The position numbers were made by a program, and so were the translations under genes. A DNA stretch of 64,000 nt from Eledone cirrhosa. Lineage: Eukaryota. Shown piece by piece: positions 44,481 through 51,281 of the stretch. Position 1 is the first letter of the stretch. Every line of letters starts with the position of its first letter. The stretch lies in contig OZ024741.1 of assembly GCA_964016885.1 (NCBI GenBank), positions 172,484,001 through 172,548,000 on the forward strand. The letters run 5' to 3'. A model generated the notes under the pieces. It made no database searches, was not told where the DNA came from, and saw nothing but the letters and a program-made list of their open reading frames with translations.

Positions 44481-44559
<79 letters not shown>

Positions 44560-44602
44560 TAACAGATTAAAGTTTAAGCAAAGAATCGCTGCTTTCACCC
44601 TT

Positions 44603-46275
44603 AACGAAAATTTGATGGTGTGTTTGTTAAACATTTTACTATAGATATGTGAGGGAGGGAAGCATTTATTTAAGGCACTAAAAAATAATTTAGGAATATT
44701 GTTATTAATAGAGATGGAGAAAGGAGCATTATACCGGATTATGTTTTTGTATCTAGGTCTTTTATTAAAATTATTGGAATGGTCATGATTAATTATTCTA
44801 CTGTAAGCTTTTCTAGAATTTGTTTCTTTACTATATTTGATTTTATCTGGATAGCCGGCTTTAGAAAGTGCGTTATTATAGTAATTGGCGTTAGCATCAA
44901 AGATGTTTTTATTAGAAGATATGTTAGATATTCTTTTTCCAATATTACTAACTATATCATTCTTGATATTGGTAGGATGGTTAGATTTAAAGTTAACATA
45001 ATTTAGGTTCTCATTGTTTTTATGGTAAGGGTAATATAGGCCAGTGTCAAGATTGAGAGATACATCCAAGAAATTAGCTAGTTTGATACTATTATCAAAT
45101 TCAATTTTTAGGTTATGTTGGTTAAAGAGATTACGTATATTGTTCTTAATAATATTAAGGTTAACTATATTGCAGTTTAGGATAGTAAAGAGTCCATCGT
45201 CGCGATAAATTCCACCGCGAAGTTGAGGAATTTTCCGACTCAAAGAGTTCAAAATGAAGATACCAATTAAATCAGTCAATTGAGATGAATCGGATGCTCC
45301 CATTGTGATGTCGAAGTTGTTAGAGGTATCGGCTCTGGTCCAATATTCGTTGTTGAACTCTAGGATGGTTTTACGTGCGGTGAGGATGATGTGAAGTTCA
45401 TCTGTGGTGATGTCAGAATATTTAAGTGCGAAAGATAGAGCATTATTGAGAAGTGAAGGCGAAATGGAGGAATAGTAGCTGGCAATATAAAATTGAATAA
45501 ATTTTAGTTTGTTTTTATTATCCAATTTGTTGAACCAGCCAATCACTTCAGAAGTACCAAACCATAAATTTAGGTTCAAAGAAGAGCAATTAGAACTAAC
45601 CTGTGGGATAATTCTATCCAAGATGGCTTTACTAACAACCCCCAGATCAGATTTAGAGGGGGCGATTAATCTAACAGGTAGTTCAGTGCGAAAATTGTTT
45701 TTGTGATCCTTGAGATTTATCCTCGGAGTTCTTGGGAGGAATGGTTCGGTCTTTTTTTCAATGCCAAGTTTTGACATAATCTCATAGGCTTCAAGGTTTA
45801 TGTATTCTAAATTTTCATGGTTGGTTTTACGATACTTTTTCCTAAGTTCTTTTAGGATAAGGTTGTTATAATTATCCTTGGAAATACCATATAAGTTATT
45901 GGTTTTGTCAGAGTGTACTAAAACATTTTTTGAGGAATTTAGGTTAGAGATTGTGTTCTTGAGATTTACAAGGTGCTCTTGTCCTTTGTAAGGGTATCTC
46001 TTGAATTTAAGATTTTTTATTATTTTAGTTAATTCTTCCTCGAATTGTACTAGATTTTTGTTGGAAGGAGGATTTCGTCTAGAATTAAAAAGATGATCGA
46101 GGAAGTTATGTTCTTTGGTATGGACGTTCCCTTTTAGGCGCTGGTCATAGAAATAGGCTGTCCATCTAAGTCTTCTTACGAAGGAGTCAGTTTTTTCAAT
46201 AAGAAGTTTGGTGAATTCAGATTTACCAGGTATAGGAATGTCTTTAGTTCAATTGGTTATGTTGTAATAATCCAT
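44603..46275 (-). pseudogene. Naiad-2 ORF, N-terminus through RT/thumb (in-frame TGA at codon 9; truncated at ~44603)
   Basis: MDYYNITN*TKDIPIP..VRRLRWTAYF..HSDKTNNLY..LKDHKNNF..RLIAPSKSDLG..FDITMGASDS..IYRDDG..NFLDVSLNL. Confidence 0.92.
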
Positions 46276-46480
46276 GTTGTAGAAGAAGAGGTGAAGGACC
46301 ATCAAAAGGTATCCAATATGAGAGTAAGCGCTCAACCGTTAAGGAGCAAGTTAATGTAGGAGGTGAGTTTTATTGCAGTACAATAAAGCAATGCAGATAT
46401 CGGATAAGAAGCACTCTACAGTTTGTAGGACTGGAGTATACATAATATAAGATCAAAAGATGGTTAAAGGAGTTCCATGT

Positions 46481-46549
46481 ATTTTATTATGCGCATTTCA
46501 AAAACAAACATCATCATGCAATAATATTTGTGTTTTCATCAGATAAAAC
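46481..46549 (-). ncRNA. Naiad-2 hammerhead, intact core
   Basis: gttttat CTGATGA aaacacaaata..tgtttgttttt GAAA tgcgca TA ataaaat. Confidence 0.88.
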
Positions 46550-47568: not shown

Positions 47569-48836
47569 TTAACTGTATACTTTGTGAAAAGTCCTATGGA
47601 ATTTATGCAGGCAGATAGAAAACAAATCTGTACGTCTATTTATTATAGAATCTAGGTTAGAGATAATGGTAAATTTTTCATTTAGGCAGAGATTACAGAT
47701 TTTAGATAGAGAGCTGTTCAAATATGAGGATGCAGAAGAAACCTTCTTCCAAAAGATGGTATATTTAATGTTTTTGTCTTTTAAGGACCATATGAGTTCT
47801 GAGAGAGCAGTGTTGGTTCTTTTAAGTTTGTATTTGAAAGATGAATGATGATTATAGGGACGAGCTTTAAAAGAGGTGAAAGTGGAGCCAAAATAGGTGA
47901 AGGAATTGGTGCTAGTTATAATTTTACATTCATAAATTAAGTTTTTATCTAGACAATGGTTGTTGAGAGGACATTTATTTTTAATGCGGCAGTTGCAATT
48001 AGAGAGATTATTAATGAGTGACCTAGTGTTATCTATAGAAGGAATTGGATTGGAGAAGTTGTTTGCGATAGGAATAATAGGAATAATAGTTTCTTTATTT
48101 AGAGTTGGATTATGAACATTTAGCGAAGTTGTGTTTGACGTTGTATTTGGGTTTACAGAAGTTAGCCTAGGGTTTACAATGACGTCGGGAGTACTATTAC
48201 TGTTATTATGAAATTCAATATTGGAAGGAAGAGATTTAGTATTTAGTATTTTATTGTTGTGTTTAGAGATGATGTTGGAAATATTGGAGGATGTAGAATA
48301 CGAAAATGTGATGGTGAGTTTGTTAAATATTTTACTATAGATATGTGAGGGAGGGAAGCATTTATTTAAGGCACTAAAAAATAATTTAGGAATATTGTTA
48401 TTAATAGAATTGGAGAAAGGAGCATTATACCAGATTATGTTTTTGTATCTAGGTCTTTTATTAAAATTATTGGAATGGTCATGATTAATTATTCTACTGT
48501 AAGTTTTTCTAGAATTTGTTTCTTTACTATATTTGATTTTATCTGGATTGCCGGCTTTAGAAAGTGCGTTATTATAGTAATTGGCGTTAGCATCAAAGAT
48601 GTTTTTATTAGAAGATATGTTAGATATTCTTTTTCCAATATTACTAACTATAGCATTCTTGATATTGGTAGGATGGTTAGATTTAAAGTTAACATAATTT
48701 AGGTTCTCATTGTTTTTATGGTAAGGGTAATATAGGCCAGTGTCAAGATTAAGAGATACATCCAAGAAATTGGCTAGTTTGATACTATTATCAAATTCAA
48801 TTTTTAGGTTATGTTGGTTAAAGAGATTACGTATAT
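47569..48836 (-). pseudogene. Naiad-2 ORF C-terminal half (thumb, Zn linker, GIY-YIG), 5'-truncated
   Basis: ORF 47569..48765: SNHP, WYNAPF, CNCRIKNKCPLNNHCL, LIYEC..YFGST..FKAR, CNLCLNEK. Confidence 0.92.
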
Positions 48837-48857
48837 TGTGCTTTTAATGCGGCAGTT

Positions 48858-51274
48858 GCAATATAGTTAACCTTAATATTATTAAGAACAATATACGTAA
48901 TCTCTTTAACCAACATAACCTAAAAATTGAATTTGATAATAGTATCAAACTAGCTAATTTCTTGGATGTATCTCTTAATCATGACACTGGCCTATATTAC
49001 CCTTACCATAAAAACAATGAGAACCTAAATTATGTTAACTTTAAATCTAACCATCCTACCAATATCAAGAATGCTATAGTTAGTAATATTGGAAAAAGAA
49101 TATCTAACATATCTTCTAATAAAATCATCTTTGATGCTAACGCCAATTACTATAATAACGCACTTTCTAAAGCCGGCAAGCCAGATAAAATCAAATATAG
49201 TAAAGAAACAAATTCTAGAAAAACTTACAGTAGAATAATTAATCATGACCATTCCAATAATTTTAATAAAAGACCTAGATACAAAAACATAATCTGGTAT
49301 AATGCTCCTTTCTCCATCTCTATTAATAACAATATTCCTAAATTATTGTTAGTGCCTTAAATAAATGCTTCCCTTTCTCACATATCTATAGTAAAATATT
49401 TAACAAACACACCATCAAATTTTCGTATTCTACATCCTCCAATATTTCCAACATCATCTCTAAACACAACAATAAAATACTAAATACTAAATCTCTTCCT
49501 TCCAATATTGAATTTCATAATAACAGTAATAGTACTCCCGACGTCATTGTAAACCCTAGGCTAACTTCTGTAAACCCAAATACAACGTCAAACACAACTT
49601 CGCTAAATGTTCATAATCCAACTCTAAATCAAGAAACTATTATTCCTATTATTCCTATCGCAAACAACTTCTCCAATCCAATTCCTTCTATAGATAACAC
49701 TAGGTCACTCATTAATAATCTCTCTAATTGCAACTGCCGCATTAAAAATAAATGTCCTCTCAACAACCATTGTCTCGATAAAAACTTAATTTATGAATGT
49801 AAAATTATAACTAGCACCAATTCCTTCACCTATTTTGGCTCCACTTTCACCTCTTTTAAAGCTCGTCTCTATAATCATCATTCATCTTTCAAATACAAAC
49901 TTAAAAGAACCAACACTGCTCTCTCAGAACTCATATGGTCCTTAAAAGACAAAAACATTAAATATACCATCTTTTGGAAGAAGGTTTCTTCTGCATCCTC
50001 ATACTTGAACAGCTCTCTATCTAAAATCTGTAATCTCTGCCTAAATGAAAAATTTACCATTATCTCTAACCTAGATTCTATAATAAATAGACGTACAGAT
50101 TTGTTTTCTATCTGCCTGCATAAATTCCATAGGACTTTTCACAAAGTATACAGTTAATATTCAATTCTTTATCAATTTAGAATCTTTTCTCAAAGGCACA
50201 TATACATACACCTCTTTAAAATATACCCATCTAATTTAAAGGGCATTATACACTCTATAATACTTGTTTACTCATTACCCTCATTCTATCTTCACCCTGT
50301 AAAATCCTTCATAACATATACATTCGTTTTCTTGACGTTAGAATATTCATCCGCAATCATTATTATTTTTTCTCTCTATCATAAATCTTTTTAATCTCAA
50401 TTTCATCCTTAATTTATTATTTTTTTCTCCCCATCAACGAACTCATTCTTAATACATATTAACTCTTTATTCGCATATATTATCAATTCCTTCAATATAC
50501 AAACTTTAACTTCACATTATTTTTCTCAAATCCTTCTACACACAAACCTTAATAATTTTTCTCTTCGTTAATTTTGAAATTGCCACAATACTTATCAACA
50601 TACCCTTTTTTGACGTTAGAATATTCATCCACAATTATTATTTTTTCTCTCTATCTTCATACATAAATTCCCTTCGTTAATTTTCAAATTCCTTTAATTT
50701 ATACATTACCTTCCAACGGTTCTCAACCTCTCTATATAAAACAATATATCTTTTTCTCAGTTATAAAAACTATCTCTTTCTCTCTATCACCCATCTCTCC
50801 CTCTCCACCTTCACTCTCATCTCCTCCCCTTTTTTCATCCTTTCCACCACCCCCTCCCTAAATAAAATATCTTTTCCTCGCACATATCCTCCCTTCGTTA
50901 ATTTTCAAAAATTGTTTTAATTTATACATTATCTTCCAACGGTTTTCAACCTCTCTATGTAAAACAATATATCTCCTCTCAGTTATAAAAACTATCTCTT
51001 TCTCTCTATCACCCATCTCTCCCTCTCATCTCCTCCCCTTTTTCATCCTTCCCCCCCCTCTCTAAATAAAATATTTTTTTCAATATCACACATCAATCTA
51101 AAACCACTTTTCATATGTTGATTTAAAACTGCACTATCCACAAGTGTTTTTTAGCCTTCATATCATGTTCTCCTGTTTTATCTGATGAAAACACAAATAT
51201 TATTGCATGATGATGTTTGTTTTTGAAATGCGCATAATAAAATACATGGAACTCCTTTAACCATCTTTTGATCT

Positions 51275-51281
<7 letters not shown>
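48858..51281 (+). mobile_element. Inverted Naiad-2 copy: ORF C-half (frameshift near 49348), 3' UTR, hammerhead 51175-51243, tail ending in (TA)n
   Basis: Reverse complement of 46443-48836. Confidence 0.93.

What the first reader, a model, noticed from the sequence alone, without database searches (positions are those of the whole stretch)
44554..51281. Naiad-2 locus: longer-than-unit permuted copy joined back-to-back to an inverted copy
Seen: the minus strand from 48836 to ~44603 reads ORF C-half, 3' UTR, HHR, then continues directly into the 5' UTR and ORF N-half and overlaps itself again. The period is ~3696 bp (45077 vs 48773). The plus strand 48858-51281 mirrors the 3' 2.4 kb and ends at the HHR tail plus (TA)n. 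The junction holds a 21-nt filler (48842-48862) copied from 47979-47999 with TGCAAT microhomology. Inference: the template was circular or concatemeric, with template switching. A near-intact monomer can be rebuilt (one early TGA), and this family is a plausible autonomous driver for the short HHR elements.
Basis: partly seen in the sequence, partly recalled or inferred. Interest (0 to 1): 0.7.

Follow-up and report, generated by a model that had tools for sequence, protein, structure and literature searches.

The report
Broken two-armed Hydra-type Penelope insertion
This is a broken copy of a known kind of animal jumping gene (a Hydra-type Penelope-like element, not a Naiad) with the tandem-plus-mirror layout already described for such elements, likely made when two RNA copies were written into both ends of a DNA break; the odd parts are a 53-base foreign left end and a duplicated flank on either side.

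Summary
The geometry is real: a 4,240-nt minus arm (1.15 units, period 3,696) sits head to head with a 2.4-kb plus arm, joined by a 21-nt patch copied from 47979-47999. The label is wrong. The GIY-YIG domain is C-terminal and the DKT, CxCX5C, CxxC/CxH motifs, hammerhead and (TA)n targets mark the Hydra clade, not Naiad. A partial tandem with an adjacent inverted 5'-truncated copy is the published layout of these elements, and the circular-template idea was proposed in 2014; this locus cannot tell a circle from a read-through RNA. The monomer is less intact than claimed: besides the early TGA, the first catalytic Asp codon of the RT reads Tyr. No short hammerhead element in the window shares more than about 25 nt with this family's end. 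The arms differ at 21 substitutions, which argues against a fold-back artefact, but no read spanning the centre was seen. Two things were missed: the left 53 nt belong to another abundant repeat, and the flanks are a roughly 9-kb tandem duplication whose junction is the element. The 200 bases beyond the window would show whether the insertion made that duplication.

The parts
44480..44553 (.). left (TA)n run; also the end of a short hammerhead-like element and of flank copy U1
44554..44606 (.). 53-nt terminal piece of a different, abundant repeat; shares 3 nt (44604-44606) with the Hydra arm
   Evidence: no second copy in window; contigs in 4 of 4 laid runs leave the window sequence at 44606 with the same continuation (table 7)
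44604..46275 (-). ORF N-half and RT (ATG 46275; TGA at codon 9, 46251-46249; DKT; motif-A Asp codon reads Tyr at 45489; YRDD intact), cut off mid-ORF at 44604
46276..46440 (-). 5' UTR / 'tail' region continuing straight on from the 3' end; other copies end in (TA)n at 46437 and at 46352-46354; small hairpin with CCTTAACG at 46344
   Evidence: (table 7, runs X4, X5)
46496..46542 (-). type I minimal hammerhead motif, long stem II, palindromic stem III; same 101 nt as the plus-arm copy
   Evidence: no Rfam hit at gathering score; folding z -1.18, not beyond shuffles
46441..47568 (-). 3' UTR, about 1.13 kb, with internal duplications of about 210 and 60 nt
47569..48843 (-). ORF C-half: thumb, Asn/Thr/Ser-rich linker, CxCX5C, C-terminal GIY-YIG domain with CxxC and CxH; acts as a 2.4-kb pseudo-LTR of the minus arm
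47979..47999 (+). source of the junction patch (mirror at 49727-49747)
48842..48862 (+). 21-nt junction patch: 2 nt shared with the minus arm, 13 nt new, 6 nt (TGCAAT) shared with the plus arm
48857..51279 (+). inverted 5'-truncated copy: ORF C-half (frameshift near 49346), 3' UTR, hammerhead 51182-51228, normal 3' end
51280..51311 (.). right (TA)n run; flank copy U2 starts right behind it
35657..44479 (+). flank copy U1 of a tandem duplication around the element
51312..63998 (+). flank copy U2 (same order and strand as U1, with a 4.7-kb extra piece 54425-59134); runs to the window end

Best explanation
This is one decayed insertion of a Hydra-clade Penelope-like retrotransposon, likely written by its reverse transcriptase into both ends of a break at (TA)n from an RNA longer than one unit, with the two copies likely joined head to head at a short self-complementary word and patched with a few bases re-copied from the element. 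Shown: clade motifs, the partial tandem, the inverted arm, the patch and its source, the lesions. Inferred: (1) the right cDNA began at the family's normal 3' end, 44 nt beyond the predicted hammerhead cut site, so the RNA was uncut or re-joined there; (2) the left cDNA ran 1.15 units through the same site, so the template was more than one unit long, most simply a read-through transcript of a tandem source; (3) two cDNAs of the same sense can only pair head to head at a self-complementary word, and the junction falls on one (ATTGCAAT, if the letter that contigs of other animals carry at 45175 is the old one), which also explains why both arms stop within 27 nt of each other in unit coordinates; (4) the patch came from a brief switch to a site about 850 nt away on the RNA or on a cDNA. 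The foreign 53 nt on the left are not settled: later deletion between the arm and a neighbouring repeat, priming inside a resident repeat, and a jump between two families' RNAs are about equally open. This copy is likely dead.
For: Layout matches the published one for Penelope-like elements: partial tandem plus an adjacent inverted 5'-truncated copy (PMC8557442), palindromes at head-to-head junctions (PMC3846280). A purified Penelope-like protein cleaves and extends both target strands, starts internally on the RNA, and uses unprocessed RNA (PMC11167929). Hydra motifs in the ORF. In the 544-nt stretch present three times each copy has a similar number of private changes (6, 6, 7), as expected of one template and later decay. 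In run X1, 14 of the 15 joints shown link mirror positions of the two arms near 46611/51113, on the palindromic word CATATG, so head-to-head joints on such words recur in this family (125 further rows not shown). Among 80 related loci, 16 have a direct repeat over 1.2 kb apart and 5 have an inverted copy of the 3' end upstream of the ORF.
Against: No contig or read bridging the centre junction was listed, so the physical join rests on the assembly. The main body is cut at its 3' side and ends in foreign sequence, which the textbook layout does not predict. Arm divergence is uneven: 12 of 543 columns near the centre against 9 of 1,852 further out (Fisher p = 0.0006), which simple decay does not explain. 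Self-complementary 8-mers are not very rare (15 in 3,696 nt), and the one at the junction needs a letter taken from other animals. The hammerhead does not fold better than shuffles (z -1.18) and cutting was not tested. The mechanism evidence is from a Poseidon-clade element, not a Hydra one.
Confidence: 0.68

Rival explanations
1. The template was a 3.7-kb circle made by hammerhead cutting and re-joining, copied round more than once.
For: 1.15 units read through the hammerhead without a seam; three equally diverged copies; model proposed in PMC4209133.
Against: A read-through RNA from a young tandem gives the same sequence. Minimal Penelope hammerheads cut poorly in vitro (PMC4209133), and hammerhead mutants of a Penelope-like element insert normally, with no RNA-seq reads ending at the cut site (PMC11167929). 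Reported animal retrozyme circles are about 170-400 nt (PMC7229834).
Confidence: 0.2
2. The insertion bridged two nicks about 9 kb apart (one in the (TA)n before 35657, one inside a resident repeat at 44606), on sister chromatids or homologues, and so created the flank duplication U1-element-U2.
For: U2 starts directly behind the right (TA)n, U1 ends directly before the left (TA)n, and similarity stops at the (TA)n before 35657. The geometry is that of a giant target-site duplication. The foreign 53 nt with a 3-nt overlap look like target DNA primed internally, as in L1 twin priming (10.1101/2024.08.27.596794). L1 is reported to cause small tandem duplications (PMC11702581). Patchy U1/U2 divergence (18 of 4,644 in one part, 42 of 2,508 in the rest) would fit two haplotypes.
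Against: U1 and U2 differ by a 0.8-kb and a 4.7-kb piece; (TA)n runs are so common (105 of 8 or more units in the window) that recombination between them, or a mis-join, can put a breakpoint at the element's end by itself. The right boundary of U2 is outside the window.
Confidence: 0.22
3. One cDNA folded back and copied itself (self-priming), giving the second arm.
For: The arms' 5' ends lie within 27 nt of each other; self-priming was proposed for Penelope inverted repeats (PMC3846280).
Against: Neither arm holds all of the other: the plus arm is 27 nt longer at the centre and the minus arm 1.84 kb longer at its far end, so extra switches or a later centre repair are needed. Both-strand priming has since been shown in vitro.
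Confidence: 0.12
4. The inversion, or the flank duplication, is an assembly artefact.
For: No bridging contig listed; repeats and (TA)n runs at every junction; U1 and U2 could be two haplotypes laid in tandem.
Against: The arms differ at 21 substitutions and only 3 indels in 2,395 columns; the centre holds unique patched sequence; other head-to-head structures with diverged arms occur in the window. This argues for a real inversion; it says little about the flank duplication.
Confidence: 0.08

Closest known systems
Hydra clade of C-terminal EN+ Penelope-like elements, e.g. Hydra-1_Obim (PMC8557442: section 11 read whole, other passages and supplement passages)
   Same: Single ORF with RT then GIY-YIG; DKT; RW at the RWK position; CxCX5C; CxxC and CxH around the conserved E and N; hammerhead near the 3' end; (TA)n targets.
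   Different: Unit is 3.7 kb against 'generally <3 kb' (2,507 bp for Hydra-1_Obim), through an Asn/Thr/Ser-rich linker and a 1.13-kb 3' UTR; RWT for RWK. A separate family by eye; no tree was built.
Typical Penelope-like insertion: partial tandem (pseudo-LTR) plus adjacent inverted 5'-truncated copy (PMC8557442 Fig. 2 legend; PMC3846280 passages)
   Same: Same order and orientation of parts, head-to-head junction.
   Different: Pseudo-LTR and inverted copy are 2.4 kb rather than about 200 nt; main body lacks its 3' half and ends in 53 foreign nt; templated patch at the junction.
Naiad clade (PMC8557442)
   Same: Tandem/inverted layout, (TA)n preference, unit of 3.4-4.4 kb.
   Different: Naiads have the endonuclease N-terminal, DKA, and lack canonical hammerheads; this element has none of those traits.
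L1 twin priming with switching, templated insertions and L1-linked tandem duplications (10.1101/2024.08.27.596794; PMC11702581; passages)
   Same: Two cDNAs primed from both target ends, joined by short complementarity; a short extra piece at the inversion point; possible flank duplication.
   Different: L1 arms come from different parts of one unit; here they overlap almost fully and one exceeds a unit. Different enzyme class.

Membership tests
Naiad | GIY-YIG endonuclease N-terminal to the RT | tested here: not met
   RT motifs precede the endonuclease, which ends the ORF
Naiad | DKG motif changed to DKA | tested here: not met
   SDKTNN
Naiad | no canonical hammerhead | tested here: not met
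   CUGAUGA...GAAA core with stems I and II at 51182-51228 and 46542-46496; activity untested
Hydra | C-terminal GIY-YIG endonuclease | tested here: met
   IY...YFG, R, E, N conserved in 13-row alignment; model pLDDT 73; ranks 1, 3, 4, 6, 7, 8 in Foldseek are GIY-YIG nucleases (family assignment recalled), all weak, best E 0.1; Pfam did not hit the window protein, one of 7 relatives hit GIY-YIG below cut-off
Hydra | DKT motif | tested here: met
Hydra | RWK motif | tested here: inconclusive
   RWT at the aligned position
Hydra | linker CxCX5C; CxxC and CxH beside conserved E and N; no CCHH | tested here: met
   CNCRIKNKC, CNLCLNE, N...CLH; no cysteine pair between the GIY and YIG halves
Hydra | hammerhead motif and (TA)n insertion | tested here: met
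   Rfam gathering search gave 0 hits
Hydra | length generally under 3 kb | tested here: not met
   3,696 nt; a tendency in the paper, not a strict criterion
Hydra | placement in the Hydra clade of an RT tree | not tested
   reference proteins were seen only as cut passages in the supplement and compared by eye
Active autonomous copy | open frame with intact RT catalytic residues | tested here: not met
   TGA at codon 9 (Ser in 13 of 13 relatives that match the pattern, of 24); Tyr at motif A (Asp in 20 of 21 that match, of 24; and in 20 of 20 long ORFs of related loci)
Circular-RNA-templated insertion | a 3.7-kb circular RNA | not testable with these tools
   no RNA run to lay

The most novel reading that the evidence does not exclude
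A Hydra-type Penelope element primed one cDNA at a (TA)n nick and the other inside a resident repeat about 9 kb away, joined them head to head, and thereby duplicated the whole stretch between: a retroelement acting as the bridge of a germline tandem duplication (a 9-kb 'target-site duplication') in an invertebrate.
Probability: 0.2. Interest if true: 0.55.

Novelty: new member of a known kind. Interest (0 to 1): 0.27.

Why it matters
As reported, it matters little: the layout and both template models are published, and this copy is likely dead. It is a clean, long example of the two-armed product that any model of Penelope-like insertion must explain, and it adds a 3.7-kb Hydra family. It would matter more if the insertion made the 9-kb flank duplication, because both-strand priming by these elements would then be a source of structural change in (TA)n-rich animal genomes, as is described for L1 in tumours and cell lines. 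That turns on about 200 bases just outside the window.

Tried and rejected
No whole genome is held for this window, so copy counts, an empty site and the sequence beyond 64000 were out of reach. Rfam: 0 hits. Pfam on 6 window ORF pieces: nothing above cut-off. PDB sequence search with the 12-row profile: 0. The wider structure searches did not run. No RNA holder listed among 17 runs. This family's end against the masked window: best outside hits 20-25 nt at E 0.08 or worse, so the window's short hammerhead elements are not its derivatives. I first read the near-coincident 5' ends of the arms as evidence against a circle, then dropped it, because joining at a self-complementary word predicts the coincidence under either template. 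Terminal repeats on related contigs cannot tell circle from tandem. A paper search for Penelope-like + chimeric + segmental duplication + insertion gave 12 papers, 10 listed, none on this point by title and abstract start; subscription journals are not covered.
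Full report
Observation. The minus strand from 48843 to 44604 reads ORF C-half, 3' UTR, hammerhead motif, 5' UTR and ORF N-half, and its two ends repeat over 544 nt at 97.8%. The period is 3,696 nt and the arm is 1.15 units. The plus strand 48857-51279 mirrors the first 2.4 kb and ends in (TA)n. The patch 48842-48862 equals 47979-47999 exactly and shares TGCAAT with the plus arm and TT with the minus arm. The plus arm starts 27 nt further 5' than the minus arm.

Identity. 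The ORF would span 800 codons (2,403 nt with the stop), RT first and endonuclease last. Its 24 protein relatives are 31-41% identical; the only named one is from a cephalopod. Naiads have an N-terminal endonuclease, DKA and no canonical hammerhead (PMC8557442, passages). Hydra elements have a C-terminal GIY-YIG, DKT, RWK, CxCX5C, CxxC and CxH, no CCHH, a hammerhead and (TA)n targets (section 11 read whole). The window protein has DKT, RWT, CNCRIKNKC, CNLC and CLH. A model of the last 144 residues (pLDDT 73) ranks T4 EndoII, Hpy188I and I-TevI at or near the top, all with weak E-values. Among 80 related loci kept of 170, all 20 with an ORF of 600 residues or more have the CxC linker after the YxDD motif, 19 have DKT or DKS and 12 a hammerhead-like motif behind the ORF. 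So it is a Hydra-clade element by motifs; no tree was built. At 3.7 kb it is longer than Hydra-1_Obim (2,507 bp, supplement row).

State of the copy. Codon 9 is TGA where 13 of 13 pattern-matching relatives (of 24) have Ser. The motif-A Asp codon at 45489 reads Tyr; 20 of 21 matching relatives have Asp, and contigs in 4 of 4 laid runs carry another letter there. The plus arm has a frameshift near 49346.

Layout against the literature. A full copy preceded by a truncated one, with an inverted 5'-truncated copy directly at the 5' end, is described as typical (PMC8557442), with palindromes at the inverted junction and even permuted halves in inverted orientation in a rotifer (PMC3846280, passages). 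Circles as templates for more-than-unit copies were proposed in 2014, alongside low cutting activity of these hammerheads (PMC4209133, passages). A purified Poseidon-clade protein cleaves and extends both target strands, starts at two internal RNA sites and does not need hammerhead cutting; the authors picture an mRNA of several copies (PMC11167929, parts 1-2 of 4). In related loci 16 of 80 carry a distant direct repeat and 14 of 80 an inverted hit, of which 5 are an inverted 3' end upstream of the ORF and the rest short or local hits. Retrozymes as non-autonomous Penelope derivatives are also in print (10.64898/2026.07.22.740005, part 1 of 5; PMC7229834, passages).

Mechanism. The plus arm ends 44 nt beyond the predicted cut site and the minus arm runs through it, so the RNA was uncut or re-joined (inference). 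The three copies of the overlap have 6, 6 and 7 private changes, which fits one template sequence but does not separate a circle from a young tandem. Two same-sense cDNAs can pair head to head only at a self-complementary word. With the letter that all 4 runs show at 45175, the junction word is ATTGCAAT and the patch overlap grows from 6 to 7 nt; such 8-mers occur 15 times per unit, so this is suggestive, not strong. In run X1, 14 of the 15 listed joints link near-mirror positions around 46611/51113 on CATATG (125 rows not shown), so short fold-back units of the family's last 170 nt exist elsewhere; summed contig depth there is far above the ORF body, though that depth is no copy number. Other copies end in (TA)n at 46437 (X4, X5) and 46352-46354 (X5), two ends about 85 nt apart, as with the two start sites of the in vitro study. 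The patch is like the extra piece of L1 'twin priming and switching' (10.1101/2024.08.27.596794, passages).

Artefact. The arms differ at 21 substitutions and 3 indels in 2,395 columns and the centre is unique patched sequence, which argues against a read fold-back. No listed contig bridges the centre; these are short contigs of other samples, so the long-read test stays open. Unexplained: 12 of 543 columns differ near the centre against 9 of 1,852 further out (p = 0.0006); gene conversion between the outer arms is one guess.

(1) 44554-44606 is not Hydra sequence. Contigs in 4 of 4 runs (246, 1, 1 and 10 records) match it and then leave at 44606 with the same continuation, so it is the end of another abundant repeat, overlapping the Hydra arm by 3 nt. 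A later deletion, priming inside a resident repeat, or a jump between RNAs would each give this. (2) The flanks are a direct duplication: 35657-44479 and 51312-63998, with 5 of 153, 20 of 1,080, 17 of 1,275 and 18 of 4,644 unmasked columns different, plus a 0.8-kb piece only in the first and a 4.7-kb piece only in the second. Similarity starts exactly behind the element's right (TA)n and has no extension to the left of 35591. This is the geometry of a very large target-site duplication, and L1 is reported to cause small tandem duplications (PMC11702581, passages). But 105 (TA)n runs lie in the window, so recombination between runs or a mis-join can give the same picture. The bases beyond 64000 decide.

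Driver of short hammerhead elements. The family's end finds no partner in the window longer than 25 nt (E 0.08 or worse). The claim is plausible at the level of the clade and unsupported for these elements.

Earlier AI notes on this genome reach the same Hydra and two-armed reading; my reading was recorded before seeing them, and they are not independent support. Supplements of the bioRxiv preprints were not seen; they could hold examples that bear on the retrozyme and duplication points.

Verdict. Real, correctly mapped, wrongly named, and ordinary in layout: a new member of a known kind. Interest 0.27. The most novel open reading, an insertion-made 9-kb duplication, has probability about 0.2 and would deserve about 0.55.

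Noticed in passing
window 35657-44479 and 51312-63998: Direct duplication of about 9 kb on either side of the element, 97-99.6% alike in patches, each copy with a private insertion; breakpoints in (TA)n.
   Followed up: partly
window 44554-44606: End of an abundant repeat not found elsewhere in the window. Read with its continuation in other animals' contigs it looks by eye like a hammerhead fold on the minus strand with a non-canonical core; not folded or tested.
   Followed up: partly
window 11041-13639: A second Hydra-type element (about 35-50% protein identity to this one, CNCRNRSIC), also as head-to-head arms (12593-11861 vs 12907-13639, 98.2%) with other sequence and (TA)n between them; also not a Naiad.
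   Followed up: partly
window 15527-15951: A further fragment of a Hydra-type endonuclease domain on the plus strand.
   Followed up: no
window 46344 (-), 44599, 17024, 17618, 57540 (+): The word CCTTAACG recurs in unrelated repeats: in a hairpin about 10 nt beyond this family's second end site, at the switch point of the foreign 53 nt, and at the centre of the fold-back 57398-57671.
   Followed up: partly
window about 48000-48215 (-): About 70 codons rich in Asn, Thr and Ser between thumb and endonuclease, absent from most relatives; the second Hydra element has two such stretches. Recalls the Asn-rich inserts of rotifer Penelope elements (PMC3846280).
   Followed up: no
window 1-5595, 18330-18513, 21312-21789, 23971-24380, 38360-38954, 53180-53779, 57398-57671: Many other fold-back or inverted structures, several bounded by (TA)n.
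   Followed up: no
window 43847-44479 and 63366-63998: Short non-coding element with a 507-nt period partial tandem and a hammerhead-like motif (44330-44395), ending at the (TA)n that borders the finding.
   Followed up: no
L001, L016, L026, L029, L043 (contig ends): Unit-length Hydra-type contigs whose two ends repeat exactly (36-122 nt); fits pseudo-LTRs, tandem arrays or circles alike.
   Followed up: no
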